Below the pieces are notes generated by a model, which did not search any database, was not told the origin of the DNA, and saw only the letters and a list, made by a program, of their open reading frames with translations. Positions 9,743-29,573 of a stretch of DNA of 55,746 nucleotides are shown piece by piece (within the stretch, counting starts at the first letter, position 1; the number at the start of each line of letters is the position of its first letter). The stretch comes from Kiritimatiellia bacterium (GTDB taxonomy: Bacteria; Verrucomicrobiota; Kiritimatiellia; RFP12; JAAYNR01), in the NCBI GenBank assembly GCA_044343885.1, contig JBIJDW010000001.1, positions 1-55,746 of the forward strand, in the 5' to 3' direction. The translations under genes and the position numbers were made by a program.

Positions 9743-9804
9743 TTGGTGGGCGGTGAGGGACTCGAACCCCCGACAGCCTGGGTGTAAACCGGGCACTCTA
9801 ACCA
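9743..9804 (-). repeat. Duplicated 3' portion of tRNA-Val (distal att repeat of the island)
   Basis: 9743..9790 is identical (48/48) to 53651..53698. The next 14 nt have 2 mismatches against 53699..53712. Similarity is then lost. Confidence 0.9.
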
Positions 9805-9945: not shown

Positions 9946-11589
9946 ATGGCGGTAGAACTGCGAAAGAAGCCCGACGGGACACTTTACCCCGACTTCTACG
10001 GGCGTTATTACGAGAACGGCAAGAGCAAGGTTGTCAATCTGGGCGTCAAGTGGGACGGCACGCCCCCTGACTCGATGTGCGCCCAGGGTGACGACATCTT
10101 CGAAATCATGCGCAAGAAGGCAGAAGAGAAGCTGGAGCGGCAAGCCGAGGAAAGCAAGCGGAAGGGCAAGGCCGACCACCTGACGGAACGTCTGATCGAG
10201 AGTAAGACCGGCACGAAGGTGAAGTATACCCGGCTGGCCGATCTCGCCGCCGCATGGCGGGGGATCGGCCGGGACGGGGGCGCGCCCTCTGAAGCCTACC
10301 TGAAATGGTGCGACTCGGTCTTCAAGCGCTTCTCCGAGGCGACCCCCTGCACGTTCCTTTACGAGGTGAACCCCGGACACGCCGACGCCTTCCTTGCCGA
10401 CATGCGCAAGGGCCACGCCGATAAGACGGTGAAAGAGATGGCGACCCTCCTGAAAGTCGCCTTTGCTCGGATACTCCCCACCGGATGCCAGAACCCCTTC
10501 ACGAAAACTATACGGCGCAAGAAGGCGCGCGTGGTCTCGGATGGGGCCGCGGTTGCGCGCCGGCCGCTGACCGACTCACAGCTTGAGCACTTGCTTGACG
10601 TGGCTAAACCCGACCCCCTGCTTTACCCGCTGACCGTGTGCGCCTCGCATACCGGGATGCGGATTGGGGACGTGTGCCGACTGAAATGGGGGTCGGTTGA
10701 CCTGCGGGGCGGATGGGTCAACGTGGCGACCAGCAAGACGGGCGTCGTTATAGAAGCGCCGATACTGCGGAGGCTGCGGGAGACGCTGGAAACCGCATTG
10801 GCGGAGCGGGAACACGGCAAGGATTACGTCTGGCCCGAGGCGGCGCGGATGTACGCGACGAACAAGGCGGGCGTCATCTACCGGGGAAAGGCGCTGTTTG
10901 CGCGGGCGTTCGCACCCGCACAGGATGCGCCGGAACTGGCCGAAAATGCGACCGAGGGCGCACATCCTGCTGATGATACATGGGGAAAAGCGGCCGACGC
11001 CCTGACGGCCCGTTTTCGAGGCGACAAGCGCGAGCGCATTCTGGACACCTTGCGGCGCGTGGCGGCTGGGGCGTCGTATGGCGATGTTCAGAAGGCGACC
11101 GGACGGCGAAAGGCTATCGTTTCGCAAGACCTGCGGGATGCCGAGACCGTGGCGGGGGTGACGCTGCGGCGTGGCAACGCAGAGGCGACCGGTCGCGACC
11201 TAAAAACCCTGATCGGCGCGACCCGGCAAGTGCGTGCCCGTGGCGCGGTGGCGGCCTCGCTTCTGGGCTGGCACAACCTTCGGGGCACGTTTGTGACGAT
11301 CGCGCTTTCCGCCGGGATACCTTTCGACACAGTGGCGAAGATCACCGGGCACCAGACGGCGAAGGTCGTGAAGGATCACTATTACAACCCGACCCGCGAG
11401 CACACGAGGGCAGCAATGGAGAGGTCTTTGCCGTCCGTGCTGACCGGGGCCAAAGCCGCACCCGCCGTACGGCCCTCCGCCGCCCTTCTCGCAGGTGCCC
11501 CCGAGGATCCTCTGGTCGATATCGTCGCGAAACTGAACGCCCTGACACCCGCGCAACGGGCCGGTGTCGTCAAGATGCTGAAAACGTAA
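9946..11589 (+). CDS. tyrosine-type site-specific recombinase/integrase
   Basis: RIGDVCRLKW (box I Arg), HNLRGTFVTIALSAGIP..ITGH (H-x-x-R ... H) and VKDHYY (catalytic Tyr region). It lies 140 bp from the att repeat. Confidence 0.85.
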   Translation: MAVELRKKPDGTLYPDFYGRYYENGKSKVVNLGVKWDGTPPDSMCAQGDDIFEIMRKKAEEKLERQAEESKRKGKADHLTERLIESKTGTKVKYTRLADLAAAWRGIGRDGGAPSEAYLKWCDSVFKRFSEATPCTFLYEVNPGHADAFLADMRKGHADKTVKEMATLLKVAFARILPTGCQNPFTKTIRRKKARVVSDGAAVARRPLTDSQLEHLLDVAKPDPLLYPLTVCASHTGMRIGDVCRLKWGSVDLRGGWVNVATSKTGVVIEAPILRRLRETLETALAEREHGKDYVWPEAARMYATNKAGVIYRGKALFARAFAPAQDAPELAENATEGAHPADDTWGKAADALTARFRGDKRERILDTLRRVAAGASYGDVQKATGRRKAIVSQDLRDAETVAGVTLRRGNAEATGRDLKTLIGATRQVRARGAVAASLLGWHNLRGTFVTIALSAGIPFDTVAKITGHQTAKVVKDHYYNPTREHTRAAMERSLPSVLTGAKAAPAVRPSAALLAGAPEDPLVDIVAKLNALTPAQRAGVVKMLKT

Positions 11590-11941
11590 TGGCGACTCTG
11601 CAAGCCAACGCGCTGCCCTGCGCCACCGCGCAAAACCTCTGGGTTTCAAAGCGTCACCAACAGGTCTTTTTGTCCTTGCGCAGGCAGATTGGATGTGTTT
11701 TACTCTCTTCGGCCGTTTGATCTGAATGCTGATCCGGGAGGGGCGCCCGATCATGGACAGAGCGGGAATCCGGTCTTGACGCATAGCGCGGAGGCATAGC
11801 AAACCTCATATGCGTCAAAACTGCGACACAAACGGTTTGAGATCAACGGATGTATTGACGGCTTTCGTGTTTTGAGGGTACGAATTCCCCCGCTATGCGT
11901 GACGGCTAATACGATGTTGAAACGGATAAAGGAGAGCAAAA

Positions 11942-12478
11942 ATGAAGATACCGGTATTCGTATCGACACCGACAATGCTCAGCACTGCGCAACTGGCAGC
12001 CAAGCAAATTGTGCTGGATGAACTCGACTCGCTCCGACTGGAACCACGGTCTCTGGGCACCTCCGACTACCCCAGCGACCTACCGCTGAGGGAGGTCTAC
12101 GTATTGGGCACGCATTGCTCAGGCGGAGTCATTCTCGGCTTTGAGCAGTTCTTCGCGCCCGCAGGCACGAAGAAGAGGGGAACGCCAAGGGAGACTCCAG
12201 TGACTGGGGGCATTCCGTTCCCGACTCCATGGAACCATCTGGAATCCGGAATCTTGTTCGGTCTTGGTCTTCCTCTGCTCGTCTTCCGTGAGCCTGGCAT
12301 CGAAGGCGGCATCTTCGATCCTGGCGTGACGGATGTTTTCGTCCACCAGATGCCAGACCCCGGCATGACCCCGGCAAATCGCGAAGCACTCAGAGAGGTC
12401 TTCCTGAAATGGCAGGCTAGGGTCAGAGAACACTACTACAGAGACCGACGGCCGACGAGTAGATCAACAACACCGTGA
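11942..12478 (+). CDS. hypothetical protein, possible TIR/NDT/SLOG-like Rossmann-fold nucleotide-processing domain
   Basis: N-terminal strand MKIPVFVS, then GGVILG, then WNHLESGILFGLGLPLLVF. This resembles the E-x-G...G-x-P-hydrophobic signature of nucleoside 2-deoxyribosyltransferase/LOG-like folds. The call is by eye only. Confidence 0.35.
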   Translation: MKIPVFVSTPTMLSTAQLAAKQIVLDELDSLRLEPRSLGTSDYPSDLPLREVYVLGTHCSGGVILGFEQFFAPAGTKKRGTPRETPVTGGIPFPTPWNHLESGILFGLGLPLLVFREPGIEGGIFDPGVTDVFVHQMPDPGMTPANREALREVFLKWQARVREHYYRDRRPTSRSTTP

Positions 12479-12509
12479 AGGCAGTACACCACTCGCATGA
12501 GGAGACATT

Positions 12510-13250
12510 ATGAAGAAGCCCCCGCCCCTAACTCCGCAGCAACTCAGAGATCGGGTTGTTCGTTTCTATGCGCGATATGGAACCGAATTGGAACAGATTG
12601 CCGAGTTGCTCCGCATCCAGTTGAAGCAATTGTGCTTAGCTTACACGATAGACCATCATCTGCCTGCAGAAGCTGTGCAGGTCACAACGAGGGTCAAGAA
12701 GCAAGCGAGTTTCCTGAAGAAACTTGAACTAGACGGCTGGCCCCAGTTCTATTACCCAACGGAAGTCGTGAAGGATCTGATCGGCGCGAGAGTCGTTTGT
12801 TGGTTCGTTGATGATTGCTACGGCCTTCTCGCCTTCGTCAGACGTTCCACCCATTTCCGCCTTGCCGATGAATCAGCTTACCCAGTCAAGGACTACATTG
12901 GCGATCCTCAACCTGCAGGTTACCGAGCCCTTCACGTCTTTGCTGAGGTGCCATACAACAGAGTTAAGAGACTCGGGAAGAAGGTAACCGTCGTTACGGA
13001 CCACCTCTTGGGCGAGATACAGATCAGGTCGAAACTTCAAGACGCATGGGGCGACATCACTCACGAGTTCTTCTACAAGGCGAAGAACGTGGGCATCACC
13101 GACGAGAAGCTTGAGCAGTTCCTCGCCGATGTGGCAAGCCGCCTCGCCTTGGAAGATCAGACACTGAAGAAGTTCCGCGACACTTACCAAGCGATGGCTG
13201 AGACCAAGTTGCGCAAGGGTAATCGTGAGGGCTTCCGAGACGAGGACTGA
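12510..13250 (+). CDS. RelA/SpoT-homolog nucleotide pyrophosphokinase (small alarmone synthetase / toxSAS-like)
   Basis: Synthetase-domain motifs TRVKKQASFLKKL, DLIGARVVCWF, GYRALHVFAEV and EIQIRSKLQDAWGDITHEFFYK. Confidence 0.85.
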   Translation: MKKPPPLTPQQLRDRVVRFYARYGTELEQIAELLRIQLKQLCLAYTIDHHLPAEAVQVTTRVKKQASFLKKLELDGWPQFYYPTEVVKDLIGARVVCWFVDDCYGLLAFVRRSTHFRLADESAYPVKDYIGDPQPAGYRALHVFAEVPYNRVKRLGKKVTVVTDHLLGEIQIRSKLQDAWGDITHEFFYKAKNVGITDEKLEQFLADVASRLALEDQTLKKFRDTYQAMAETKLRKGNREGFRDED

Positions 13251-13348
13251 GGGGCCAACAAGCAATTGCTGCCTACTCCGCTTCGCTCCGAGGCAGATTT
13301 GCGACGTTGGGCAGAGAAACAGAGATCGCAGCAAAAACAGGAGGAGCC

Positions 13349-13894
13349 ATGCCAACACCAAACGACAAAGGCGCAGCATTCGAGTCTGAAGTCAGAGACC
13401 TTCTTGTTACCATCCAGAAACTGCATCCGAATTCAGTGACGATCCTTGAGAAACCATCAATCGAGTTACAGAACGGTGAGACCGTCTACCCTGATTTCCA
13501 TCTGATCGTCTCCTATCCTCATGAACGGCGCCACTACCTCATCGAATGCCAGAACAGGGAGCACAACTCCAAATCGATTCTCCACAAGATCCAACATGTC
13601 CGAGCCAAGCAAGCCTTCAAGACCTTCTTCTTCCTCTATCCGGAGAGCATTCCGGAGGAACTGGCCCGCGCATTCGCTGCCGAAGGCATCGTTCACCAAA
13701 ATGTCCGCTCGTTTCGCCAGTTCCTGGATGGTCTCTCAGGATTGCTCGTTGCCCTGCCATCATCAGAAACGGGCAACATTACACAGACTCATGATCGTCC
13801 TGACTATGCAATGTCGGTTGTTGACTCGAAACGCGAATGGGAAAAGCGTATAGGTCGTGAACTGGATGAGTGGCGGCGCAGGGGATTTCAATGA
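13349..13894 (+). CDS. NERD/Mrr-like restriction-endonuclease-fold protein (putative)
   Basis: AGGAGG lies 4 nt upstream of the ATG at 13349. It has an AAFESEVRDLL helix and PDFHLIV ... YLIECQNRE, which is a D...E-x-Q variant of D...E-x-K. Confidence 0.4.
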   Translation: MPTPNDKGAAFESEVRDLLVTIQKLHPNSVTILEKPSIELQNGETVYPDFHLIVSYPHERRHYLIECQNREHNSKSILHKIQHVRAKQAFKTFFFLYPESIPEELARAFAAEGIVHQNVRSFRQFLDGLSGLLVALPSSETGNITQTHDRPDYAMSVVDSKREWEKRIGRELDEWRRRGFQ

Positions 13895-13975
13895 TACACA
13901 TGCCCAACAACACGCCAGAGGATATTCATCGCTAACGCGCCGAAATCATCAGCGTGAGCGTTATGCGGAGGAGCT

Positions 13976-14362
13976 ATGCCACAAGATAGAGCATCAGGGG
14001 CTGCAGCGAGCGAATGGGGGCGCCTTACCGCCCAGCGGCTCATCGAGGAGCTGGGAGGAACTTCCCTATCTGAGAACAGCAACGAGTTTCTCCTCGGCGG
14101 CGAAAAGCTTGTACTTAAATGTGCGTCTGCATCGACAACGTCTGTGGGCGTCTCCCTCAAGATGCTTGATTGCATTGACGGTATCGTGGCAGCTTTTGCA
14201 GACACCGACGGTGCATTCACTCTATCCCGCATGAGCCCGCATGCGTATCGCGCTAGAATGCGTCCGACGCGTAGCTGCGGCGCTTCCGCCGGTAAAGTAG
14301 GCAAGGTATCGAAGTCGGCGTTCTCGGAACACGGTGTTGCATTGTCAGTAATCCATCTATAG
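13976..14362 (+). CDS. hypothetical protein
   Basis: 128-aa ORF with protein-like composition. Preferred over the overlapping 253-aa minus-strand ORF, whose sequence looks like high-GC antisense noise. Confidence 0.4.
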   Translation: MPQDRASGAAASEWGRLTAQRLIEELGGTSLSENSNEFLLGGEKLVLKCASASTTSVGVSLKMLDCIDGIVAAFADTDGAFTLSRMSPHAYRARMRPTRSCGASAGKVGKVSKSAFSEHGVALSVIHL

Positions 14363-14487
14363 AGGCGCGCTATGATCCATCTTTGTTCTTGCCATTTTCC
14401 AGCCTCTTTGGCACTCTTCCCTCGGTTGGGAACGCTGCCTTTTTTGCGTTGCCGCCAAAGCTCAAGGCTAAGGATGGGCAAGATACT

Positions 14488-15276
14488 ATGGTTTCCAACA
14501 GGGAGAAGGAAAATGCAGCCGGCTTTAAATACGGCAGCAACGGCCCTCATAGCAGTCGCACCCTGATGCTGGACAGCGTGTCCAAGTGTCTGGATGTTTT
14601 GTCCGTCGGCGCGAGTTATGCCGATTACCAGACGGGCATAGTCGATCAAAACATCCTTGGAAAGCGAACCGAGGCGACACGTAAAGAATCTTTCCGCCGT
14701 TTGCGTGAGTTGTATGCCCTCGATCCCTTGGTGCCGCTGTTTCGCATCTACCGGGAACTGGATGCTTTGGACCCCGTTTCCCGCCCATTGCTATCACTCC
14801 TTGTCGCCAGCGCGCGCGATCCACTGCTGCGTGCCACTTTTCCTGTTATCCTAGGCTCGCGTGAGGAGGAACCCATTGGTGCGGAACATTTTGACAATGC
14901 CTTGGAACATTGCTTTCCCGGCCACTTTCGCCCTGCCATCCGCGCAGCTACGGCCAGGCATATCGCTTCGACCTGGACACAGTCCGGCCATCTCACGGGC
15001 CGACGCCCGAAGTTTCGCGCCCGCGTCGTACCCACGCCTGCCGCGCTCGTGATGGCACTGCTTCTGGGGACGTTGCAGGGGATTCACGGTGCAGCCCTGT
15101 TCGGAACCACCTGGTGTCAGATATTGGATTTGAACGCTGCAGAGGCGCAATCTCTGGCCTCTCTGGCGCATCGGGAGGGGTTGCTCGACCTGCGGGCGGT
15201 GGGCACGGTTGTTGCCGTTGCCTTCCCCCGTTTCACTGCGGCCCTGAATACCGGAGACGCACATGAGCCATTGTGA
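14488..15276 (+). CDS. brxA: BREX protein BrxA (DUF1819-like)
   Basis: It sits immediately upstream of, and overlaps, brxB. The segment IVDQNILGKRTEATRKESFRRLRELY resembles DUF1819. Start set at the ATG at 14488. Confidence 0.6.
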   Translation: MVSNREKENAAGFKYGSNGPHSSRTLMLDSVSKCLDVLSVGASYADYQTGIVDQNILGKRTEATRKESFRRLRELYALDPLVPLFRIYRELDALDPVSRPLLSLLVASARDPLLRATFPVILGSREEEPIGAEHFDNALEHCFPGHFRPAIRAATARHIASTWTQSGHLTGRRPKFRARVVPTPAALVMALLLGTLQGIHGAALFGTTWCQILDLNAAEAQSLASLAHREGLLDLRAVGTVVAVAFPRFTAALNTGDAHEPL

Positions 15277-15823
15277 CCGGCTGATTGAAAACTATCGGCG
15301 ATTCGTGCGCCTGCCCTGGTCTGGAAACTTGGCTGGCAAGCAACGGGTCTGGTTCGCCGTCTATCCCCCATCGGAGGAGCGACGGGTCCGAGCCCACCTT
15401 CAGGAGTTTCAGGTCGCCACGTTGGACGCCGGACACAAATGGCAGGCAGTCGACATCACCGACCTGCCCGCCCGCTGGCTTGCTGGCCATCGCTACGGTG
15501 CGGGTTATTTCGCCGACCCTACCGCTATTCCGGCTGTCGAGGAGGACATCCGGCAGGCCGCCGCCGACGTTCTGGAAGAGGCGTTACAGGCATCTTGTGC
15601 CGATGCGGAAACCGTTGTCGCCGTGACGGGGGCCGGATCGCTCTACGGTTTTACGCATGTCTCTTCCGTCGTCTCCAAGATTGAAGATTCTATTCGCGGG
15701 CGCCTGCTGCTATTCTTTCCAGGCGAATACGAACGCAACCTCTACCGCTTTATGGATGCCCGCGACGGCTTCAACTACATGGCCGTGCCAATCACCTCAA
15801 ACGAAAGCGTACTACAACCGTGA
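15263..15823 (+). CDS. brxB: BREX protein BrxB (DUF1788)
   Basis: RVWFAVYPPSEERRVR and FFPGEYERNLYRFMDARDGFNYMAVPI are characteristic of DUF1788. Confidence 0.85.
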   Translation: MSHCDRLIENYRRFVRLPWSGNLAGKQRVWFAVYPPSEERRVRAHLQEFQVATLDAGHKWQAVDITDLPARWLAGHRYGAGYFADPTAIPAVEEDIRQAAADVLEEALQASCADAETVVAVTGAGSLYGFTHVSSVVSKIEDSIRGRLLLFFPGEYERNLYRFMDARDGFNYMAVPITSNESVLQP

Positions 15824-18800
15824 AAAACAGGGACCTTTACCAGAAAGACCCCCTCAGTTTCGAGTTGCTGAACAACGGCGTCTCGAAAGTCGGGGAAGTC
15901 GGGATCGACCCGGAACAGCTTAAGACATTGCGCTTTGAATTGGAGACTTTTGTTTGCGACGGAGAGTATGCCAAAGGGCTTGAACGCATCCTGAGCGCCT
16001 ACCTGGGCGGTATGAATCGCTCGGAGCAGCAGGCCGTCTGGGTCAGCGGTTTTTTTGGCAGCGGTAAAACGCACCTGGTCAAGATGCTGCGCTACCTGTG
16101 GGAAGACTTTGTCTTTCCGGACGGCGCCAACACCCGCTCCATTGTCGTGTTGCCCGCAAACATCAGCGACCTGCTAAAGGAACTGACGACCCGCTCGCGC
16201 CGCTATCAGGGATTGCGCGCTGCGGCTGGTACGCTGGGTGCAGGAAACATGGACAGTGTGCGCGTAGCTTTTCTCCAACTGGTATTCCGGGCCGCCGGCT
16301 TGCCTGAAAACCTTGCGGCTGCCCGGTTTGTTCTTTGGCTCCGCGAAAGAGGCCTGTATGACACGGTCTGCGCCCACTTGAAGGCTCAACGGCTGGATCC
16401 CGCCTCGGAAATGCGCAATTTCTTCGTCTCTCCCAAGCTTGCCGAGGCCCTTGTCGCGGCCGAGGCCAGCTACGGCACGCCGCAAAATGCCCAAGGCGCC
16501 ATTCGCGCGCAGTTTCCGACAAGCTACACCCCCACCATTGACGATTCGCTGCACATCCTTCGCCAGGTCTTTACCAAAGACGACATTTTTCCCTGCGTGC
16601 TGCTTGTCGTGGATGAGATTCAACAGTTCATTGGCGATCGGGTGCAGCGCGCCATGGACGTGCAGGAAATTACGGAACACTGCTGCACGCGATTGGACAG
16701 CCGCCTTCTGATCGTTGGAACAGGCCAGTCGGCCCTTACGGGAACGGCCAGTCTGAGCCGGCTCCAGGCGCGATTCTCCGTCAAGGTGCCCCTGTCCGAC
16801 ACCGATGTCGAGACGGTCATCCGTCGCACCGTCCTGGCCAAGAAGCCTGAAAAGAACGCCACCATCGAGAAGGTTATTGAAAGCAACGCCGGCGAAATCA
16901 GCCGACATTTGCAGAACACCCGTCTCGCCAGCACCGCTGCTGACCGCGCCGTCTACGCCTCCGACTACCCGCTGCTCCCTGTCCGGCGCCGTTTCTGGGA
17001 GAAAGTGCTGCGCAATGTGGACGCCAGCGGCACCACGGCGCAATTGCGCACCCAACTTAAGATCGTCTTCGACGCGGCGCGCGAATCGGCCGAATGGAAG
17101 CTCGGCTCCGTCGTTCCGGCGGATTACATCTATGACCAGATCGCTACCGACCTGCTCAACACCGGCATCCTCCAGCGCGAGTATCACGAGATCATCCTCG
17201 GTGCGCGCGACGGAACCCCGGACGGTCTCCTGCGGTCCCGCATCTGCGCCCTCGTCTTCTTGATCGCCCAGCTTCCGCGCACACCCGGTGCGGACGATAA
17301 CGTGCGCGCCACCGAGGAAACCCTGGCCGATCTTCTGGTGTGCAATCTGACCGAAGACGGCCAGAAACTGCGCCAGTCCGTCCCAAGTCTCCTTTCGGGT
17401 CTGGAGTCCGACGGCAAACTGATGCGGGTCGAGAACGAATACTGTCTTCAGACCCGCGAAGGCGCGGGATGGAACCATGATTTCGGCCAACGCCGATCAC
17501 GAATTCTTAATGACGACGCATTGCTCGGAGCGGAACGAGAACGCCTGTTTGGCGAAGCGATAGCCCTTGCCTTGAAGCCCCTGTCTCTCCAGCACGGCAA
17601 TGCGCGCGAACCCCGCAAACTGGAGTATTGCTTATCGGCATCCCGCCCCTCGCAGCCCGATAACGCGCTCTTGCTCTGGGTGCGTCATGGCTGGTCGGAA
17701 TCCCAGACACGCGTCGAGACCGATGCCAAGGCGGCAGGGTCAGAAAGCCCCACACTCTTCGGCTTCCTGCCCCGCGAACGCCACAACGAGTTGAAGCAGG
17801 GCATCGGCTCTCAACTCGCCGCCAGGGAAACGCTGGATGCCCACGGCGTTCCTTCCACGCCGGAGGCCATCCAGGCGGCAAACGCCATGAAGACTCAGCT
17901 CGAAGCGGCCCGCCTGCGCGTCCAGTCTTGCCTCCGCGAGATCATCGCAAACGCCAAGATCTACCTGGGCGGCGGCAATGAAGTCGGCGGTCTCGAATGG
18001 GTGGACAAGGCGAACGCCGCCGCCGCCAACGCCCTTCAACGCCTCTTTCCCCGTTTCGCCGAGGCCGACCATGCGAGTTGGGCACAGGTTCGGAACACCG
18101 CTCGCGGCGGAAACGTGGGCGCGTTGCAGGTGGTGGGCTACCAGGGGGAAACGGTTCGCCACCCCGTCTGCAAGGCCGTGTACGATTTTATCGGCGCCGG
18201 CAAGAAGGGCAGAGAGGTACGCGAACAGTTCCGGAGCGCGCCCTTCGGCTGGCCGCAGGACGCGGTGGACGCCGCACTGGTCATTCTGACCCTCGCCGGC
18301 AATCTCCGCGCCGCAGCGAACGGACAGCCGATTCTGGCAACGGCCATCGGACAGGACCAGATCGGCTCGCTCTCGTTTCATGTGGACATCCCGCCGCTGA
18401 CCGTGGTGCAGCGGCTCGACCTGAAAGCCCTTTTCCAGAAACTCAGTGTCACCACACCGAACGGACAGGAGTCCGCCGCTGCCGGACAGTTTCTCGTCAA
18501 GTTGCTGGAACTGGCCCAAGCCGCCGGGGGAGAACCGCCCAGCCCCGAAACGCCCCCCGTCAAACCGATCCGCGATCTGCAAACCGAAAGCGGGAATGCC
18601 CAGCTTTTGGCCATCCACCAGCAAAAGGATGCTTGGGCGCAGAGCATCGGCGCCTGGACGACTACCCGTGACGCCATCGCCAAGCGACTGTCACGTTGGC
18701 AGCGGCTTGCCGAACTGCAGAATCTGGCTGCTGATCTGCCCGAAGCCACCGCCGTGGCCCAGTCCGTGAATGGCATCCTGTCCAGTCGCTGCCTGCTGGC

Positions 18801-19257
18801 TGATCCAGACCCGGTGCCGCCTCTGATTCAGACCCTTGTTGCCGCGCTGCGCACGGCTTTGAACGCCTTGCAGGCCCAGGTGCAAGCCGCGCATGCGGCC
18901 GGCATGGCCAAACTGGACGCCAGCCCGGCGTGGCGCAAGCTGGGCAAGGCCGTGCAATCCGGGCTTCTGGACCGGTTCAATGCCAATCCCCCTCCACCGG
19001 TCGCCGTCGGCACGGAGGAGGAGGTCGTCAACGCCGTGCGGACGGTATCGTTGGCCAACCGGCGCACCGCGATCGAGGCCGTGCCCCAGCGTTTCAGCAT
19101 GGCAATGGAGGAGGCTATCCATCTGGCGGAGCCCAAGGCCGTGCGCGTCACGTTGCCCTCGGCGACCATCAAGGACGCGCAGGAGCTGGACGCTTGGTTG
19201 AAGGGCGCCAAGGCGGCCGTCGAGGCCAAGCTCAAGGACGGGCCGGTGATCGTATGA
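15820..19257 (+). CDS. brxC: BREX ATPase BrxC/PglY
   Basis: 1145 aa. Walker A is GFFGSGKTH and Walker B is LLVVDEIQQF. The GTG start overlaps the brxB stop (GTGA). Confidence 0.88.
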   Translation: MKNRDLYQKDPLSFELLNNGVSKVGEVGIDPEQLKTLRFELETFVCDGEYAKGLERILSAYLGGMNRSEQQAVWVSGFFGSGKTHLVKMLRYLWEDFVFPDGANTRSIVVLPANISDLLKELTTRSRRYQGLRAAAGTLGAGNMDSVRVAFLQLVFRAAGLPENLAAARFVLWLRERGLYDTVCAHLKAQRLDPASEMRNFFVSPKLAEALVAAEASYGTPQNAQGAIRAQFPTSYTPTIDDSLHILRQVFTKDDIFPCVLLVVDEIQQFIGDRVQRAMDVQEITEHCCTRLDSRLLIVGTGQSALTGTASLSRLQARFSVKVPLSDTDVETVIRRTVLAKKPEKNATIEKVIESNAGEISRHLQNTRLASTAADRAVYASDYPLLPVRRRFWEKVLRNVDASGTTAQLRTQLKIVFDAARESAEWKLGSVVPADYIYDQIATDLLNTGILQREYHEIILGARDGTPDGLLRSRICALVFLIAQLPRTPGADDNVRATEETLADLLVCNLTEDGQKLRQSVPSLLSGLESDGKLMRVENEYCLQTREGAGWNHDFGQRRSRILNDDALLGAERERLFGEAIALALKPLSLQHGNAREPRKLEYCLSASRPSQPDNALLLWVRHGWSESQTRVETDAKAAGSESPTLFGFLPRERHNELKQGIGSQLAARETLDAHGVPSTPEAIQAANAMKTQLEAARLRVQSCLREIIANAKIYLGGGNEVGGLEWVDKANAAAANALQRLFPRFAEADHASWAQVRNTARGGNVGALQVVGYQGETVRHPVCKAVYDFIGAGKKGREVREQFRSAPFGWPQDAVDAALVILTLAGNLRAAANGQPILATAIGQDQIGSLSFHVDIPPLTVVQRLDLKALFQKLSVTTPNGQESAAAGQFLVKLLELAQAAGGEPPSPETPPVKPIRDLQTESGNAQLLAIHQQKDAWAQSIGAWTTTRDAIAKRLSRWQRLAELQNLAADLPEATAVAQSVNGILSSRCLLADPDPVPPLIQTLVAALRTALNALQAQVQAAHAAGMAKLDASPAWRKLGKAVQSGLLDRFNANPPPPVAVGTEEEVVNAVRTVSLANRRTAIEAVPQRFSMAMEEAIHLAEPKAVRVTLPSATIKDAQELDAWLKGAKAAVEAKLKDGPVIV

Positions 19258-20873
19258 AAGAGGCTGGCTCTGAGGCACCGAACATGGGCACGAAGCATCC
19301 GGAACCCGACGACCGTCCGTTCGGGCACGGCGAAGGGCTTGCTTTGGAGTTCAAGCGTGCCGCCGACCGGCTGCCGTCGAGTTTCTTCGAGACCGTCTGC
19401 GCCTTCCTGAACATGGACGGCGGTCTGATCGTGTTGGGCGTCGAGGATGACGGCCGCATCTCGGGCGTGGAGCCGGAATCTGTTGCCCAGATTATGGCCG
19501 ACATCGCGAACCTCTCCAACAATCCGCAGAAACTGGACCCGCCCTATCTGCTGTTTCCCCACGATGAACAGATCGGAGGCGGACGGGTCATCACCGTGCA
19601 GGTGCCAGCCAGCTCGCAGGTTCATCGTACGGGGGGCGAGGTCTTCCTGCGCAGCGAAGACGGCGACTACCGCATCAAGGACCCCTACCAGATCGCGGGG
19701 CTGGTCAACCGCAAGCTCAGTTTCTACACCGAGCAGCGCGTACTGCCGTGGCTTGGCATCGGCGACTTGCGCCCCGATCTGTTCGACCAGGCCCGCGCGC
19801 TGCTCAACGCCCAGCGTCGCAACCATCCGTGGGCGAAACTCCGTGACGAGGAATTACTTCAGATCGGCGGCTTTATCCGCAGGGACCCGCTGACATCCAA
19901 GACCGGATACACGCTCGCCTCCGCGCTCATGTTCGGCACGGACGCCACCATTCAGCAGGCCGCTCCGGCGATGGTCTTCGACGCTCTTCTGAGACGGGAC
20001 AACGTGGACCGATACGACGACCGCGTGATGCTCTACACCAACCTCATCGAAGCCTTCGGCGGACTCATGGCATTCGTTGAAAAGCACCTGAACGACCCCT
20101 TCTACCTGGAAGGCACGGAACGGGTCAGCTTGCGTGACCGCATCTTCCGGGAACTGGTCTCCAATCTCATCGCGCACCGCGAATACACCAGCGCCGCTCC
20201 GGCGACCCTGACGATCTTCCGCGACAAGGTCGTCTTCCGCAACCCCCATGTGCCGCATCTGCGGGGGCGCATCGATCCGAAGCGGTTTACCCCCTTCCCG
20301 AAGAACCCGACGATCTGCCGCTTCATGCTGCAACTCGGCCGCTACGAACAGGCCGGCTCCGGCGTGTACAATGTCACCAAGTACCTGCCTATCTACACCC
20401 TAGGAGCTTCGCCGGTCTTCGAGGAATACGCCGATGTCTTCGAGACGACCATTCCGCTGACTCCCCCGGAATCGGGAACCGGCGCACAAGTCACCGGACA
20501 AGTCACCGGACAAGTCACCGGACAAGTCGCGGCACAAGTCACGGGTAAAGTCGAAGGTGAAGTCGGCGAGCAAGCCAGTGAGCATGTTGATGAGCAAGCT
20601 ACCCCACAAGTCACCCCACAAGTCACCCCACAAGTCACCCCACAAGTCATAGCGGTTCTTAGGACGGCTGAGAACGTGGCCACGGCGGGGGCACTGCAGA
20701 AGGCCGCTGGACTAAAGGATCGGGTCCATTTCCTGAAGGCGTACTTGGAGCCGCTATTGAAGGCCGACATCCTTGAACGAACCATTCCCGACAGACCCCG
20801 CAGCCGCCTCCAAAAGTACCGGCTCACGCCCAAAGGCGCGAAATGGCTGAAGCAGCACAAGGATAACCAATAA
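19254..20873 (+). CDS. AlbA_2/Schlafen-type ATP-binding putative DNA-binding protein (RecG-like regulator family)
   Basis: LEFKRAADRLPSSFFETVCAFLNMDGGLIVLGVEDDG matches the AlbA_2 core. The C-terminus has xQVx repeats followed by PDRPRSRLQKYRLTPKG. ATGA overlap with brxC. Confidence 0.75.
   Translation: MKEAGSEAPNMGTKHPEPDDRPFGHGEGLALEFKRAADRLPSSFFETVCAFLNMDGGLIVLGVEDDGRISGVEPESVAQIMADIANLSNNPQKLDPPYLLFPHDEQIGGGRVITVQVPASSQVHRTGGEVFLRSEDGDYRIKDPYQIAGLVNRKLSFYTEQRVLPWLGIGDLRPDLFDQARALLNAQRRNHPWAKLRDEELLQIGGFIRRDPLTSKTGYTLASALMFGTDATIQQAAPAMVFDALLRRDNVDRYDDRVMLYTNLIEAFGGLMAFVEKHLNDPFYLEGTERVSLRDRIFRELVSNLIAHREYTSAAPATLTIFRDKVVFRNPHVPHLRGRIDPKRFTPFPKNPTICRFMLQLGRYEQAGSGVYNVTKYLPIYTLGASPVFEEYADVFETTIPLTPPESGTGAQVTGQVTGQVTGQVAAQVTGKVEGEVGEQASEHVDEQATPQVTPQVTPQVTPQVIAVLRTAENVATAGALQKAAGLKDRVHFLKAYLEPLLKADILERTIPDRPRSRLQKYRLTPKGAKWLKQHKDNQ
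20487..20649 (+). repeat. Two blocks of 12-nt in-frame tandem repeats (QVTG x3+, TPQV x4)
   Basis: The unit caagtcaccgga occurs three times perfectly, then degenerates (20487-20570). The unit ccacaagtcacc occurs four times (20602-20649). Confidence 0.9.
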
Positions 20874-20932: not shown

Positions 20933-23900
20933 ATGACCTCCCTTTCCAAACCCCTCCGCAACGAGCTCTCTAGCGCCGTACTCGCTGCCCGCAAGCTGGC
21001 CGAGGCGGCTGCGGGCAAGGCGTTGCACGGCCTTGGCGTGGACGAGGCCGATCCGCCGGAACACCTCGACACCGAGGGGCGTCGGCTGCGTGTCCGACTC
21101 CGCTCTCAGGCGCGGCAGTTGGGCGACTGCGAGGACGCCGCCAAACGGGGATGCCTCGAAATCCGCCATCTCTCCGAAAAGATCGCCTATGACCACTGGC
21201 ATCGCCTGCTGTTCGCTCGCTTCCTGGCCGAGAACGACCTGCTGATCTCGCCCGATCACGGTGTCGGCGTCAGCCTAGCCGACTGCGAGGAACTCGCGCC
21301 CGCCCTGGGTCTCCGCGATGGATGGGAGGTCGCCACCCGCTTCGCCTCCCGGATGCTGCCGCAGATCTTCCGGCCCGACGACCCCGCCGACAGCGTCGTC
21401 TTCGCCCCCGAGGATCGCGTCGCCTTGCGCAAGCGGGTCACCGCTTTGTCCGGCGACATCTTCCTCGCCAACGACAGCCTCGGCTGGTGCTACCAATTCT
21501 GGCAGGCGGAGCGGAAGGAGGAGGTCAACAAGGCCGGCAACAAGATCGGCGCCGATGAATTGCCAGCCGTCACGCAACTGTTCACCGAGGATTACATGGT
21601 GGACTTCCTCTTGGACAACACCCTCGGCGCGTGGCACGCAGGGAAAGTTTTCAGTGTTCAGTCTTCAGTTTTCAGCACAGAGGCGGAGGCACGCGCGGCC
21701 TTCGCCTTGCCGGCGTGCGAATGGAAATATCTGCGGCTCATCCAAGGTGAGGACGGCAAATGGACTCCCGCCGCTGGCACGTTTGACGGCTGGCCCAAGT
21801 CTGCCGCCGCCATCCGGGCGCTCGACCCGTGCATGGGCAGCGGGCATTTCGTCGTGGCGATGTTCGCGCGTCTGGTGGCCTTGCGCCTGGCCGAGGAAGA
21901 ACTGGACGAAGCGGCGGCGGTGGCGGCGGTCATCCGTGACAACCTCTTCGGCTTGGAGATCGACCCCCGATGCACGCAGATCGCCGCCTTCAACCTGGCG
22001 CTGGCCGCGTGGCGGCGCGTAGGCCACTGCAAGCTGCCGGCGATGAACCTGGCCTGCTCCGGACTCGCGCCGAACACCCCGGAAAAGGAGTGGGTCGCGC
22101 TGGCCGGCGATACCGAGCGCCTTCAGCGCGGAATGTCACGCCTCTACGCCCTGTTCAACAACGCCCCGGTCTTGGGCAGTCTGATTAACCCCATAGCGGC
22201 GAAAGACGACCTGCTCGATGCCAATTACCATGAGGTCGCCGACCTGCTCACCCAAGCGCTGGCGCAAGAGTCTCATTCATCCTTCATCATTCATCCTTCA
22301 TCCATGGAATCCGCTGTGACCGCGCGTGGAATCGCCAAGGCGGCGGAAATTCTCGCCGGCCAGTTCACGCTCGTCGCCACCAACGTGCCGTATCTGATGC
22401 GCAGAAAACAAGACGACGCGCTGCAAGATTTTTGCGTGGCAGATTTCCCGGATTCCAAAAACGACTTGGCAACTGTTTTCATTGAGCGAGGGTTTTCATT
22501 TCTCGGTCGGTTCGGTAGTCAAGCTCTAGTCACGCCTCAAAACTGGCTATTCCTTGGGAGCTACGAACATCTTCGTTCGGATTTCCTAAAGGAACGGAAA
22601 TTCAATTTGGTCGCGCGTCTTGGTGCGAAAGGCTTTCGCACGCCGATGTGGGATTTCAATGTCGCGCTTTTAATAATGTCGGCTGACCGACCTTTCGAGG
22701 TTCACCCTCTTAATGGTGTTTCTGTGGAATCGAAGGAAGACCCGTCGGAAAAAGCGAATGAGCTAGTCCACGCCGATATAACGAGCGTTCCTCAAAAGTC
22801 GCAACTTCTCAATCCTGCTGCGGCCCTCACATTCTCCGCGCCGTCGGAGTTGTCCCCTCTCAGTCGCTACGCATACGCACCCAACGGTTCACATGGCGGT
22901 GATTCTCAGCGGCATCGTCGGCCATTTTGGGAGTTCAATCGCGTGAGTTCTGATTGGCGAACATTCCAAGGAACATTCGGAGAAACCAGCATGTTTACTG
23001 GGCGAGAACAGCTTTTCTCGTGGTTTCGCGATGGTGCTGACCATCGTGAGAACCCAAGTGCTTATATCAAAGGAGAAGATGTGTTCGGAAAGCCTGGCGT
23101 TGTTGTCAGTATGATGGGAGCGCTTCCGGTTTCGATATATTCAGGAGACATGTTTGACATAAGTTGCACACCGATTGTCCCCAACGATCCAAGCCACCTG
23201 CCAGTGATTTGGGCTTACTGTTCCTCACCAGAATACCACAAGGAAGTGCGTCTCATTGACCAGGCTCTCAAGGTGACAAATGCCACGCTCGCCAAAGTCC
23301 CCTTCGACCTTGCGCACTGGCAGAAGGTGGCGGCGGAGAAATATCCGGATGGATTGCCAAAACCGTTTTCCAGCGACCCGACGCAATGGCTGTTCAACGG
23401 CCATCCTGCCGGTTCGGACCAGCCTTTGCAGGTAGCCGTGGCGCGGTTGCTCGGCTACCGCTGGCCGCGCCAGACCGGATCCGAGTTCCCGGATTGCCCC
23501 GCGCTCGAACCGGACGGCCTGGAGAAATATGCCGATGCCGATGGGATCGTCTGCCTCAACGCGATCAAGGGCGAGCAGCCCGCCGCCGAGCGGCTCCGGG
23601 CCTTGCTTGCCGCTGCATTCGGCGCGGACTGGAGCGCCTCCACCCTCTCCCATCTCCTCTCCACCCTCCACCCTCCACCGTCCACCCTTGACGACTGGCT
23701 CCGCAACGGCTTCTTTGAGCAGCACTGTCAACTTTTCCATCAGCGTCCATTCATCTGGCACATCTGGGACGGCCTGCGCGATGGCTTCAGCGTGCTGGTC
23801 AACTACCACAAGCTCAACCGTTCCGCCTTGGAGAAACTGACCTACACTTACCTCGGCGACTGGATCGGACGCCAGAAGGCCGCCGTTGCCGCCGGAGAAG

Positions 23901-24259
23901 AGGGCAGCGACGCCAAACTGGCCGCCGCCCAGCAGCTCCAGTCCTCGCTGAAGCTGATCATCGAAGGTGAGAAGCCCTACGACATCTTCGTCCGCTGGAA
24001 GTCGCTGGAGAAGCAACCCATCGGGTGGGTGCCGGATCTGAACGACGGCGTGCGCATGAACATCCGCCCGTTCCTGTCCGTCCCCGACGTCGGCCGCAAG
24101 GGCGCCGGCATCCTCCGCTGGTCCACCAAGATCAAGTGGGACAAAGATCGCGGCAAAGACGTCCCCAGCGCCCCCTGGTACAAGGTCTTCAACGGCGACC
24201 GCATCAACGACCACCACCTGACGCTGGCGGAGAAGCGTGAGGCGAGGGAGAAGGGTTGA
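20933..24259 (+). CDS. pglX: BREX N6-adenine DNA methyltransferase PglX
   Basis: 1108 aa. Motif I is LDPCMGSGHFVV and motif IV is ATNVPY. Its position follows brxC. Confidence 0.88.
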   Translation: MTSLSKPLRNELSSAVLAARKLAEAAAGKALHGLGVDEADPPEHLDTEGRRLRVRLRSQARQLGDCEDAAKRGCLEIRHLSEKIAYDHWHRLLFARFLAENDLLISPDHGVGVSLADCEELAPALGLRDGWEVATRFASRMLPQIFRPDDPADSVVFAPEDRVALRKRVTALSGDIFLANDSLGWCYQFWQAERKEEVNKAGNKIGADELPAVTQLFTEDYMVDFLLDNTLGAWHAGKVFSVQSSVFSTEAEARAAFALPACEWKYLRLIQGEDGKWTPAAGTFDGWPKSAAAIRALDPCMGSGHFVVAMFARLVALRLAEEELDEAAAVAAVIRDNLFGLEIDPRCTQIAAFNLALAAWRRVGHCKLPAMNLACSGLAPNTPEKEWVALAGDTERLQRGMSRLYALFNNAPVLGSLINPIAAKDDLLDANYHEVADLLTQALAQESHSSFIIHPSSMESAVTARGIAKAAEILAGQFTLVATNVPYLMRRKQDDALQDFCVADFPDSKNDLATVFIERGFSFLGRFGSQALVTPQNWLFLGSYEHLRSDFLKERKFNLVARLGAKGFRTPMWDFNVALLIMSADRPFEVHPLNGVSVESKEDPSEKANELVHADITSVPQKSQLLNPAAALTFSAPSELSPLSRYAYAPNGSHGGDSQRHRRPFWEFNRVSSDWRTFQGTFGETSMFTGREQLFSWFRDGADHRENPSAYIKGEDVFGKPGVVVSMMGALPVSIYSGDMFDISCTPIVPNDPSHLPVIWAYCSSPEYHKEVRLIDQALKVTNATLAKVPFDLAHWQKVAAEKYPDGLPKPFSSDPTQWLFNGHPAGSDQPLQVAVARLLGYRWPRQTGSEFPDCPALEPDGLEKYADADGIVCLNAIKGEQPAAERLRALLAAAFGADWSASTLSHLLSTLHPPPSTLDDWLRNGFFEQHCQLFHQRPFIWHIWDGLRDGFSVLVNYHKLNRSALEKLTYTYLGDWIGRQKAAVAAGEEGSDAKLAAAQQLQSSLKLIIEGEKPYDIFVRWKSLEKQPIGWVPDLNDGVRMNIRPFLSVPDVGRKGAGILRWSTKIKWDKDRGKDVPSAPWYKVFNGDRINDHHLTLAEKREAREKG

Positions 24260-29299: not shown

Positions 29300-29402
29300 G
29301 TAGTGACATGTTTCGCATGTAAGGAGAATCAATTGAATACGGAGTGCAACATCGAGAGCGGAAAAAATAGTCGAAAAAAGGGCTTGCATATGGACGTGTA
29401 CA

Positions 29403-29432
29403 ATGATATACCGTGTGTACACGGTATATCAT
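29403..29432. promoter_or_regulatory. 30-bp palindrome, putative operator 1 (abiE promoter region)
   Basis: atgatataccgtgt-gt-acacggtatatcat, with perfect 14-nt arms. Confidence 0.6.
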
Positions 29433-29520
29433 ACCTTACACGTCGCGTGCCTGCGCCTCGTTCGGCAATGATGATTGCCCAAGAATTGTTGAGTTTGGAG
29501 TTGCATGGTGCCAGTGCAGT

Positions 29521-29550: not shown

Positions 29551-29573
29551 ATCGTTGATCCGTTGAGGTTCTC

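What the first reader, a model, noticed from the sequence alone, without database searches (positions are those of the whole stretch)
11942..14362. RelA/SpoT-homolog cassette with a TIR/NDT-like partner and a nuclease-fold gene next to the integrase
A stand-alone RelA/SpoT synthetase-domain protein (12510..13250; motifs DLIGARVV, GYRALHVF, EIQIRSKLQDAW..H..YK) lies between two partner genes.

Upstream, 32 nt away, is a 178-aa protein. Its pattern (KIPVFVS, GGVILG, WNHLESGILFGLGLPLLVF) suggests a TIR/nucleoside-deoxyribosyltransferase/SLOG-like nucleotide-binding fold. Downstream is a NERD/Mrr-like nuclease-fold gene with a strong RBS, followed by a further small ORF.

Stand-alone RSH enzymes are known as toxSAS toxins, which synthesise ppApp or pyrophosphorylate tRNA and are paired with diverse antitoxins. 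The partners seen here are not the classic ones as far as I can tell. This could be a toxSAS toxin-antitoxin pair with a new antitoxin type. It could also be a nucleotide-signal generator plus sensor/effector defence module.
Basis: partly seen in the sequence, partly recalled or inferred. Interest (0 to 1): 0.7.

Follow-up and report, generated by a model that had tools for sequence, protein, structure and literature searches.

The report
Mosaic defence genes beside island integrase
The four small genes are real and sit in a 44-kb anti-phage island, but they are separately shuffled modules rather than one conserved alarmone-synthetase cassette. The most interesting one is an unannotated enzyme-like family that elsewhere travels with TIR/SLATT immune genes.

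Summary
All four ORFs exist on the + strand with good ribosome-binding sites.
- 12510..13250 is a complete RelA/SpoT synthetase.
- 11942..12478 (A) models as an NDT/TIR-like fold.
- 13349..13894 (C) models as a PD-(D/E)xK nuclease fold.

The genes are not co-conserved. 79 loci with RSH homologues (24-78% identity) and 81 loci with A homologues (55-87%) share none of the other genes. The quartet recurs only in identical copies of this element.

- **RSH:** it is far closer to RelP/RelQ than to CapRel and is normally a solo gene.
- **A:** it belongs to a family of more than 1,000 unannotated proteins. Its recurrent partners are SLATT plus ThsB-TIR (like type VII Thoeris), FRG, DUF4062 NADase and a cyclase-STAND protein. 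The five closest A relatives each have a different neighbour.
- **D (13976..14362):** it travels with the 5' end of the BREX operon.

Everything lies in a 44-kb tRNA-Val island that also carries BREX and Gabija-like genes.

Best reading: a mosaic defence island. A and RSH are probably co-transcribed, and may form a nucleotide generator/effector pair (about 0.4), but that pairing is unique to this element.

The parts
9744..9804 (-). attL-type partial copy (61 nt, 2 mismatches) of the 3' part of tRNA-Val. It marks the left end of a ~44-kb genomic island.
   Evidence: The 31-nt core is found exactly twice in the window, with 0 expected by chance. Sequences were read. ARAGORN and Rfam find no complete tRNA here.
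9946..11589 (+). Tyrosine integrase of the island.
   Evidence: Pfam Phage_integrase, E 7.7e-16.
11942..12478 (+). Gene A: 178-aa member of a large unannotated family with an NDT/TIR-like flavodoxin fold. It has invariant D42-Y43-P44, R50-E51, H58-C59, G66-F67-E68-Q69 and W97-N98...E101.
   Evidence: - More than 1,182 homologues, none annotated.
- Alignment A2.
- AF2 model and Foldseek hits to MilB, DNPH1, NDT and TIR.
- Neighbours of homologues are SLATT, ThsB-TIR, FRG, DUF4062 and others.
12510..13250 (+). Stand-alone RelA/SpoT-homologue small alarmone synthetase (246 aa). All five synthetase motifs are intact. It has no hydrolase domain and no C-terminal sensor domain.
   Evidence: - Pfam RelA_SpoT 2.3e-18.
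- PADLOC PDC-S33 matches the catalytic half only.
- RelP/RelQ are the best solved relatives.
- Family alignment A1.
- The mobile module runs from about 12493 to 13308, judged by homology with an 89%-identical solo copy.
13349..13894 (+). Gene C: 181-aa protein with a PD-(D/E)xK restriction-endonuclease-like fold, from a small family (11 homologues).
   Evidence: Its homologues lie next to a reverse transcriptase/transposase and a serine recombinase, without A or RSH.
13976..14362 (+). Gene D: 128-aa protein of a family that is also found fused to HNH, NOV_C, FRG and DUF6998 domains. Here it is the gene immediately upstream of brxA.
   Evidence: - 255 cluster representatives.
- Fusion partners.
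- About 95% DNA identity with L176 from ~15 nt before the ATG through brxA. Upstream of that, a VRR_NUC gene replaces C.
14383..19257 (+). BREX type 1 genes brxA, brxB and brxC. The operon continues with pglX 20933..24259, pglZ 31651..34074 and brxL 34071..36122.
   Evidence: PADLOC BrxA 1.6e-79, BrxB 4.2e-66, BrxC E=0. Pfam for PglX, PglZ and BrxL.
53652..53728 (-). Complete tRNA-Val (TAC). This is the integration target and the right end of the island.
   Evidence: ARAGORN, Rfam 68.6 bits, and the repeat with 9744..9804.

Best explanation
The interval is the integrase-proximal cargo end of a ~44-kb island inserted in tRNA-Val. It is a mosaic of separately exchangeable defence-type modules, not one conserved system.

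**Module 1: gene A**
- A has an NDT/TIR-like fold and looks like an enzyme or nucleotide-binding protein.
- Its family most often forms three-gene operons with a SLATT membrane effector and a ThsB-type TIR signal generator.
- In A's own clade those partners have been replaced by other nucleotide enzymes or single-gene defence proteins.

**Module 2: the RSH**
- It is a RelP/RelQ-like small alarmone synthetase from a family that is almost always a solo gene.
- Here its own upstream DNA has been cut back to 17 nt. It therefore sits 32 nt behind A and is most likely transcribed with it.

**Most likely mode of action (inferred, not shown)**
- On infection the RSH transfers pyrophosphate from ATP to a purine nucleotide. 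This makes (pp)pGpp or (pp)pApp, drains NTPs and arrests growth.
- As in the characterised GRel/Pag1B enzyme, it is probably held inactive until triggered rather than neutralised by an antitoxin.
- A either acts on the nucleotide pool or signal as an N-glycosidase-type effector or switch coupled to the RSH (about 0.4), or works independently (about 0.4).

**Modules 3 and 4**
- Gene C is an independent PD-(D/E)xK nuclease gene.
- Gene D belongs to the 5' end of the BREX operon. C and D may form a 'nuclease + D-domain' pair.
For: **Shown**
- Island borders: a 61-nt tRNA-Val repeat.
- Defence content: BREX, Gabija-like OLD plus UvrD, and a SLFN/AlbA_2 protein.
- No co-conservation: tblastn and HMM searches of 79 RSH loci and 81 A loci find none of the other genes. 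The quartet appears only in 100%-identical copies.
- Sharp module borders:
  - A homology ends at its stop codon.
  - RSH homology to an 89% solo copy runs from 17 nt before the ATG to ~58 nt after the stop.
  - D-to-brxA is 95% identical to L176, with a different nuclease gene upstream.
- Partners of A:
  - SLATT in 15 of 81 loci, TIR in 13 of 81 and FRG in 11 of 81, with tight spacing and variable gene order.
  - SLATT+TIR partners are scattered over at least 7 clades of the A tree, and the window's clade is sister to one of them.
  - The closest A relatives (84-88% identity) each have a different neighbour.
- Folds.
- RSH affinity to RelP/RelQ.
- No terminator-like site between A and the RSH.
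- GC3 pairs A with the RSH (0.64 and 0.64) and C with D (0.57 and 0.56).

**Precedents from papers**
- TIR+SLATT is type VII Thoeris. A CMP-hydrolase-fold effector defines type VIII, and the two occasionally share an operon (10.64898/2025.12.03.692087).
- A toxSAS that is activated, not neutralised, by its partner and makes (pp)pGpp (10.64898/2026.04.06.716658).
- DUF4062 is a TIR-like NADase defence protein (10.64898/2026.05.01.722283).
Against: - Coupling of A and the RSH rests on adjacency in one lineage only.
- A proteins that are 84-88% identical sit next to unrelated partners. That argues against specific protein-protein coupling.
- A is flanked by opposite-strand genes in several loci, so it may be autonomous.
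- A's link to NDT/TIR is structural only (TM about 0.55). Profile comparisons with DNPH1 and with ThsB-TIR are not significant.
- No sigma-70-like promoter was found upstream of A.
- Neighbour calls used a crude longest-ORF method, on at most 80 loci per scan, many of them short contigs.
- The RSH substrate and any toxicity are untested.
Confidence: 0.6

Rival explanations
1. A and the RSH form a dedicated two-gene nucleotide-signalling defence system. The RSH is the signal generator and has been swapped into the slot held by TIR, cyclase or DUF4062 enzymes in sister operons. A is the NDT-fold effector or sensor that responds to, or hydrolyses, the alarmone.
For: - 32-nt spacing, same strand, no terminator, and the RSH lacks its own upstream region.
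- Equal GC3 for A and the RSH.
- In A's clade the neighbours are all nucleotide enzymes: a TIR-like 450-aa protein with a weak PADLOC hit, a Guanylate_cyc-STAND protein, a DUF4062 NADase and the RSH.
- Thoeris type VIII uses a CMP-hydrolase-fold effector (10.64898/2025.12.03.692087).
- From my own knowledge: (p)ppGpp allosterically activates the nucleotide nucleosidase PpnN.
Against: - The pairing is not seen in any other lineage.
- The RSH family works as a solo gene elsewhere.
- A also pairs with non-generators such as FRG, GNAT and RF-1, and often stands alone.
Confidence: 0.4
2. Classic toxSAS toxin-antitoxin pair. The RSH is a constitutively toxic enzyme and A is a new antitoxin, either type II (binding) or type IV (degrading the product).
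For: - The upstream small gene and tight spacing resemble TA operons.
- toxSAS enzymes pair with diverse antitoxins, including a product-degrading hydrolase (PMC7229694).
- A's promiscuity recalls the Panacea antitoxin domain (PMC8832971).
Against: - More than 75 RSH homologues have no conserved neighbour and no A, including an 89%-identical copy preceded by non-coding DNA. A strongly toxic enzyme could not persist alone like that.
- The family is closest to the non-toxic RelP/RelQ.
- A's main partners are TIR plus SLATT, not toxins lacking an antidote.
Confidence: 0.1
3. The RSH is an ordinary accessory (p)ppGpp synthetase for stress physiology that happens to ride on the island. It has no role in phage defence and no link to A.
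For: - RelP/RelQ-like over its whole length.
- Within Ferrimonas and Chloroflexia it lies in conserved chromosomal contexts next to housekeeping genes.
Against: - The clade nearest the window (at least 65% identity) lies with transposases, integrase fragments and a CapRel-like gene.
- A subclade carries a C-terminal extension and lies between HsdR and HEPN genes.
- Here it sits between defence genes in a mobile island.
Confidence: 0.15

Closest known systems
RelP/RelQ small alarmone synthetases (PDB 6fgk, 5dec, 5ded)
   Same: Single synthetase domain of about 210-250 aa. The match covers residues ~20-224, including the flanking helices, at E 1e-19 to 1e-21. All five catalytic motifs are present.
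   Different: Only about 25-30% identical. Patchy distribution across many phyla and on mobile DNA. The Asn of the guanine-binding loop (KxNGYxSxH) is replaced by Ala, Ser or Thr in this family (read; the reference motif is from my own knowledge).
GRel/Pag1B toxSAS of type I PANGU (10.64898/2026.04.06.716658)
   Same: An alarmone-type toxSAS used for defence that is not toxic on its own, and is held inactive and then activated. Ferrimonas futtsuensis, the source of PANGU, also carries a 52%-identical 249-aa homologue of the window's RSH (L010).
   Different: No YejK-like nucleoid protein next to it, and no C-terminal DNA-mimic domain. The protein ends after the linker helix. Membership of the GRel subfamily could not be tested.
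CapRel / PADLOC PDC-S33 fused toxin-antitoxin
   Same: The catalytic half matches (PDC-S33 6.4e-15, residues 53-221; 7ztb 6e-6). A full-length PDC-S33 gene directly follows a 75% homologue in L001.
   Different: It lacks the C-terminal antitoxin/sensor half, and the sequence relationship is far more distant than to RelP/RelQ.
Thoeris types VII (TIR+SLATT) and VIII (TIR + CMP-hydrolase-TPR) (10.64898/2025.12.03.692087)
   Same: Relatives of A lie in operons with ThsB-TIR and SLATT. A's best structural match is the CMP N-glycosidase MilB, the fold class of the type VIII effector.
   Different: The window has no TIR gene and no SLATT gene. A has no TPR and is not recognised by any NDT, CMP-hydrolase, TIR or SLOG profile.
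DUF4062 / other recently recognised TIR-like NADase families (10.64898/2026.05.01.722283)
   Same: A previously unannotated family with a TIR/NDT-superfamily fold, a conserved Glu, a patchy HGT-type distribution and defence-gene neighbours.
   Different: No sequence relationship was detected. An 87%-identical A homologue sits upstream of a DUF4062 protein rather than being one. Enzymatic activity is unknown.

Membership tests
RSH superfamily, small alarmone synthetase | RelA_SpoT synthetase domain above Pfam's gathering score | tested here: met
   66.9 bits against a cut-off of 27.
RSH superfamily, small alarmone synthetase | Five synthetase motifs (RxKxxxSxxxK, DxxGxR, GYxxxH, ExQxR[TS], HxxYK) and no HD, TGS or ACT domains | tested here: met
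   R61, K63, S67, K71, D89, R94, Y138, H142, E169, Q171, R173 and H185 are invariant; G92, Y189 and K190 are conserved in at least 90% of sequences. The protein is 246 aa with a single domain.
toxSAS toxin-antitoxin module (PMC7229694) | Conserved two- or three-gene arrangement with the same neighbour across lineages | tested here: not met
   No recurrent neighbour in 79 loci, and no A, C or D by tblastn or HMM.
toxSAS toxin-antitoxin module (PMC7229694) | Belongs to a validated toxic subfamily (FaRel, FaRel2, PhRel, PhRel2, CapRel) | tested here: inconclusive
   The family profile hits RelP/RelQ at 1e-19 to 1e-21 and CapRel at only 6e-6, and no chain named FaRel2 or Tas1 appears among the hits. 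No reference phylogeny was available.
toxSAS toxin-antitoxin module (PMC7229694) | Toxicity neutralised by the neighbouring gene | not testable with these tools
   Needs expression assays.
PANGU type I (NAP + GRel) | Adjacent YejK-like nucleoid-associated protein and a C-terminal DNA-mimic domain on the synthetase | tested here: not met
   The neighbours are A and C, which have no Pfam hit and different folds. The RSH ends at residue 246 right after the linker helix.
Thoeris | ThsB-type TIR gene plus an effector in one operon | tested here: not met
   No TIR or SLATT profile hit in the window genes. This feature is met only in loci of A homologues.
NDT/TIR (N-ribosyltransferase-like) superfamily, for gene A | Profile-level sequence match to a member family | tested here: not met
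   No Pfam hit for 33 members, even at E up to 5. hhalign against DNPH1 and against ThsB-TIR gives probability below 1%.
NDT/TIR (N-ribosyltransferase-like) superfamily, for gene A | Flavodoxin-like fold matching NDT/TIR structures | tested here: met
   MilB E 2e-4 with TMq 0.55, plus DNPH1, NDT, TIR-STING and SARM1. Viral NDT and hmCMP hydrolase models also match. The model pLDDT is only 76.6.
NDT/TIR (N-ribosyltransferase-like) superfamily, for gene A | Catalytic Glu at the equivalent position | tested here: inconclusive
   E101 is invariant in the motif PWNHLE-AGILFGLGLPLLVF. The only hhalign segment pairs it with the W-x-W-E motif of ThsB, but not significantly.
PD-(D/E)xK nuclease, for gene C | Restriction-endonuclease-like fold with acidic and Lys motifs | tested here: met
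   Foldseek hits Cdn1, Can2, R2-RLE, AF1548, Bax1 and MspJI. E12, D49 and E66-x-Q68 are invariant, and K75 is invariant. There is no NERD or Mrr profile hit.
BREX type 1 (context) | brxA, brxB, brxC, pglX, pglZ and brxL all present | tested here: met
Integron gene cassette (considered for the RSH module) | attC hairpin at the 3' end and GTTRRRY at both borders | tested here: not met
   The 3' hairpin folds no better than shuffled sequence (z = -0.25). There is no GTTRRRY at the 5' border.

The most novel reading that the evidence does not exclude
Gene A founds a new TIR/NDT-superfamily enzyme family that reads or destroys nucleotide second messengers. In this island it has been rewired from a TIR generator to a RelA/SpoT synthetase. 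That would make it the first signal-to-effector anti-phage pathway driven by an alarmone-type nucleotide, analogous to Thoeris or CBASS.
Probability: 0.15. Interest if true: 0.8.

Novelty: new variant of a known kind. Interest (0 to 1): 0.45.

Why it matters
As a 'new toxSAS cassette' the finding does not hold, which saves effort on a three-gene model.

What remains useful:
1. **Family A.** This is a very conserved, completely unannotated family: more than 1,000 90%-identity clusters and 65% mean column identity across phyla. It has a TIR/NDT-like fold and is a recurrent third gene of TIR+SLATT (type VII Thoeris-like) operons. It is also a highly promiscuous neighbour of single-gene defence proteins. 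Its role could be second effector, signal off-switch or activator, and this can be tested directly.
2. **The RSH clade.** This is a RelP/RelQ-like solo synthetase clade that has become mobile and sits in defence islands. It extends the recent finding that alarmone synthetases can be activated immune effectors rather than TA toxins.
3. **A worked example.** The locus shows how defence islands assemble operons from modules with borders only a few nucleotides from the coding sequence.

Tried and rejected
- **Profile searches.** Pfam, NCBIfam, PADLOC and PHROGs gave nothing for A, C and D. Scanning 33 A-family members against Pfam at E up to 5 gave nothing relevant.
- **Sequence searches of the PDB.** A and C, and the A profile, gave only chance hits.
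- **Profile-profile comparisons.** A against DNPH1 (my recalled sequence was first verified against the PDB) and against a ThsB-TIR alignment were not significant.
- **A distant partner upstream of RSH homologues.** The 110-260-aa upstream ORFs are unrelated to each other and to A: guanylate kinase-like, GNAT-like, response regulator and others.
- **The 453-aa gene after the 89% RSH copy versus the 450-aa gene after the 84% A copy.** They are unrelated.
- **C versus the VRR_NUC gene that replaces it in L176.** No sequence similarity.
- **D-like genes next to C homologues.** None found.
- **Phage origin.** No A or RSH relatives in IMG/VR contigs.
- **Integron-cassette idea for the RSH module.** Rejected.
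- **Regulatory signals.** The promoter scan found nothing and the terminator scan found nothing convincing. Rfam found only the tRNA.
- **Classifying the RSH into Atkinson-lab subfamilies.** This failed because the supplementary tables are not held.
- **RSH variants with a C-terminal extension.** I tested whether they are Pag1B-like. They have no adjacent nucleoid protein and the extension is not acidic.
Full report
**1. The observation**

The + strand of 11942..14362 carries four ORFs. Each is preceded by an AGGAG-type ribosome-binding site:
- A, 11942..12478 (178 aa)
- the RSH, 12510..13250 (246 aa), 32 nt after A
- C, 13349..13894 (181 aa from the ATG behind AGGAGG)
- D, 13976..14362 (128 aa)

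A tyrosine integrase lies upstream at 9946..11589. All four proteins have homologues in public data. Antisense ORFs in the interval have no such support.

**2. What each gene is**

*The RSH.*
- It is a bona fide RelA/SpoT synthetase: Pfam scores 66.9 bits against a cut-off of 27.
- All catalytic motifs are invariant or at least 90% conserved in a 24-sequence family alignment.
- Its closest solved relatives are the housekeeping small alarmone synthetases RelP and RelQ. The family profile scores E 1e-19 to 1e-21 over almost the whole length.
- The toxSAS CapRel scores only 6e-6, and no chain named FaRel2 or Tas1 appears among the hits.
- PADLOC's PDC-S33 model matches only through the catalytic half.

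*Gene A.*
- It hits no profile library.
- It belongs to a large, strikingly conserved family: 1,182 proteins with E <= 0.001 and 65% mean column identity, with 42 invariant positions.
- Its AlphaFold2 model (pLDDT 76.6) is a flavodoxin-like alpha/beta fold.
- The best PDB matches are MilB CMP N-glycosidase, DNPH1, nucleoside 2-deoxyribosyltransferase and TIR domains.
- In the viral structure library it matches NDT and CMP/hmCMP-hydrolase models.
- Sequence-profile comparisons with DNPH1 and ThsB-TIR are not significant. The NDT/TIR assignment is therefore at fold level only.

*Gene C.*
- It has only 11 homologues.
- It has a PD-(D/E)xK-type motif set.
- Its model matches the nuclease domains of Cdn1/Can2, the R2 endonuclease, AF1548, Bax1 and MspJI.

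*Gene D.*
- It has 255 cluster representatives.
- In other proteins the D domain is fused to HNH, NOV_C, FRG or DUF6998 domains.

**3. Surroundings**

A 61-nt copy of the 3' part of tRNA-Val at 9744..9804 is repeated, with 2 mismatches, in the complete tRNA-Val at 53652..53728. This delimits a ~44-kb island with the integrase at its left end.

After D come the BREX type 1 genes:
- brxA, brxB and brxC
- pglX, pglZ and brxL

A Schlafen/AlbA_2 protein lies between brxC and pglX. A Gabija-like OLD-ATPase/UvrD-helicase pair lies between pglX and pglZ. The setting is clearly a defence island.

**4. Are the genes a unit?**

No.
- The exact A-RSH-C-D-BREX arrangement occurs in 13 contigs from several metagenomes, but all carry identical proteins. 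They are the same element.
- In 79 genome loci encoding RSH homologues (24-78% identity), tblastn and a family HMM find no A, C, D, integrase or BrxA.
- Clustering of neighbours shows no recurrent partner, and Pfam shows mostly housekeeping or transposon genes.
- An 89%-identical RSH is preceded by 290 nt of AT-rich non-coding DNA.
- In 81 loci encoding A homologues (55-87% identity) there is no RSH, C or D.
- C homologues lie beside a reverse transcriptase/transposase or a serine recombinase.
- A copy of D at 90% identity or more sits between a VRR_NUC nuclease gene and brxA-brxB-brxC. The window and that locus are ~95% identical in DNA from ~15 nt before D's ATG into brxA, and unrelated upstream. 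D therefore travels with the BREX 5' end.
- Another copy of D lies in a non-BREX nuclease-rich context.

Module borders are sharp:
- A homology ends at its stop codon.
- RSH homology runs from 17 nt before its ATG to ~58 nt after its stop.

**5. What A's relatives reveal**

Neighbours of A are strongly enriched for conflict-system domains:
- SLATT/DUF4231 in 15 loci.
- ThsB-type TIR in 13 loci, 12 of them together with SLATT. Gaps range from -8 to about 30 nt, and gene order varies.
- FRG (PADLOC PDC-S15) in 11 loci.
- Single cases of HEPN, Apea-HEPN, SIR2, cNMP-binding, TPR-S, nucleotidyltransferase, RF-1 and GNAT.

In a neighbour-joining tree of 84 A proteins, SLATT+TIR partners are scattered over at least seven clades. 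FRG forms one clade. The window's clade is sister to a SLATT+TIR clade.

Within the window's clade (84-88% identity) every member has a different neighbour:
- a 450-aa protein with a weak TIR-type PADLOC hit
- a Guanylate_cyc-STAND protein
- a 152-aa unknown protein
- a DUF4062 protein 34 nt downstream
- the RSH in the window

Relevant published work:
- TIR+SLATT is the recently validated type VII Thoeris. Type VIII uses a CMP-hydrolase-fold effector, and rare operons carry both effectors (10.64898/2025.12.03.692087).
- DUF4062 is a TIR-like NADase defence family (10.64898/2026.05.01.722283).

A is therefore a genuine but promiscuous component of nucleotide-centred immune operons. Several A genes are flanked only by opposite-strand genes, so it may also act alone.

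**6. Mechanism**

*Shown.*
- An intact synthetase and an intact, fully conserved A lie in probable co-transcription. The gap is 32 nt, there is no terminator-like site, and the RSH has lost its own upstream region.
- GC3 is equal for A and the RSH (0.64). C and D share a lower value (0.56-0.57).

*Inferred.*
- The RSH makes (pp)pGpp or (pp)pApp and depletes NTPs to arrest infected cells.
- It persists alone in dozens of genomes and resembles the tetrameric RelP/RelQ. It is therefore more likely kept inactive and triggered than neutralised by an antitoxin.
- This has been shown for the GRel toxSAS Pag1B, whose isolated synthetase domain is inactive (10.64898/2026.04.06.716658).
- A may be the coupled N-glycosidase-type effector or signal switch (about 0.4), or an independent neighbour (about 0.4). 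The antitoxin role is least likely (about 0.1).
- C plus D may form a separate 'nuclease + D-domain' pair. This is suggested by D's fusions to nucleases and by a nuclease gene upstream of D in another locus.

**7. Comparison with known systems, and novelty**

- The RSH is a member of the SAS class.
- It is not a demonstrated member of any toxSAS TA subfamily. It lacks the defining features of PANGU (no nucleoid protein, no DNA-mimic domain) and of CapRel (no C-terminal domain).
- A works like an NDT/TIR-superfamily protein but fails profile-level membership.
- The locus is a new variant of known kinds of defence modules. The unannotated A family is its most novel element.

**8. Caveats**

- Neighbour analysis used longest-ORF calls, not a gene finder.
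- Each collection scan kept only the best 80 loci, and many contigs are short.
- The structural models have moderate confidence.
- No function has been tested.

Noticed in passing
window 9744..9804 and 53652..53728: A 61-nt direct repeat (2 mismatches) made of the 3' part of tRNA-Val brackets a ~44-kb integrase-bearing genomic island. The left copy is a truncated tRNA that ARAGORN and Rfam do not call.
   Followed up: yes
window 24369..28486: A Gabija-like pair (OLD-type AAA_15+TOPRIM ATPase and a UvrD-family helicase, with overlapping genes) is inserted inside the BREX operon between pglX and pglZ. Three further ORFs (28523..31375) were not examined.
   Followed up: partly
window 18930..20873 and 37885..40395: A Schlafen/AlbA_2 + HATPase_c_4 + Fic-like_C protein lies between brxC and pglX. 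An 836-aa radical-SAM protein lies downstream of brxL. Both are possible further defence cargo.
   Followed up: no
L001 1806..3760: In a Bipolaricaulis MAG, a 75%-identical homologue of the window's RSH is followed 26 nt later by a full-length PDC-S33 (CapRel-like, 373 aa) RelA/SpoT gene. This gives two different RSH genes in tandem.
   Followed up: partly
P0090, P0095, P0102; L180 4001..5179: A subclade of the RSH family carries a ~130-aa C-terminal extension with no Pfam hit. In Herbaspirillum sp. B65 it lies between a type I HsdR gene and a HEPN RiboL-PSP gene. This could be a fused sensor or regulator, like the C-terminal half of CapRel.
   Followed up: partly
P0269, P0302, P0328, P0367 (relatives of window 13976..14362): The D domain is repeated 5-14 times in giant proteins of up to 3,213 aa, besides its fusions to HNH, NOV_C, FRG and DUF6998. 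The nature of the domain is unknown.
   Followed up: no
L025, L027-L030, L032-L035, L044 (about 150-700 nt upstream of the RSH homologue): Ten Chloroflexota/Anaerolineales (and one Verrucomicrobia) loci share a ~107-aa ORF, with overlapping alternative frames, at about 150-700 nt (mostly ~250 nt) upstream of the RSH homologue. It could be a conserved small gene or a non-coding element. It was not identified.
   Followed up: no
window 11773..11821: A 13-nt inverted repeat (GTCTTGACGCATA / TATGCGTCAAAAC, 92% complementary) lies in the 352-nt gap between the integrase and gene A. It overlaps a TTGACG hexamer and may be an operator or promoter for the A-RSH transcript.
   Followed up: no
L172 2839..6537: An 87%-identical A homologue lies 66 nt downstream of a 1,031-aa Guanylate_cyc + NB-ARC/STAND + TPR protein with weak matches to Pycsar cyclases. 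This may be a cyclase-based sensor paired with A.
   Followed up: partly
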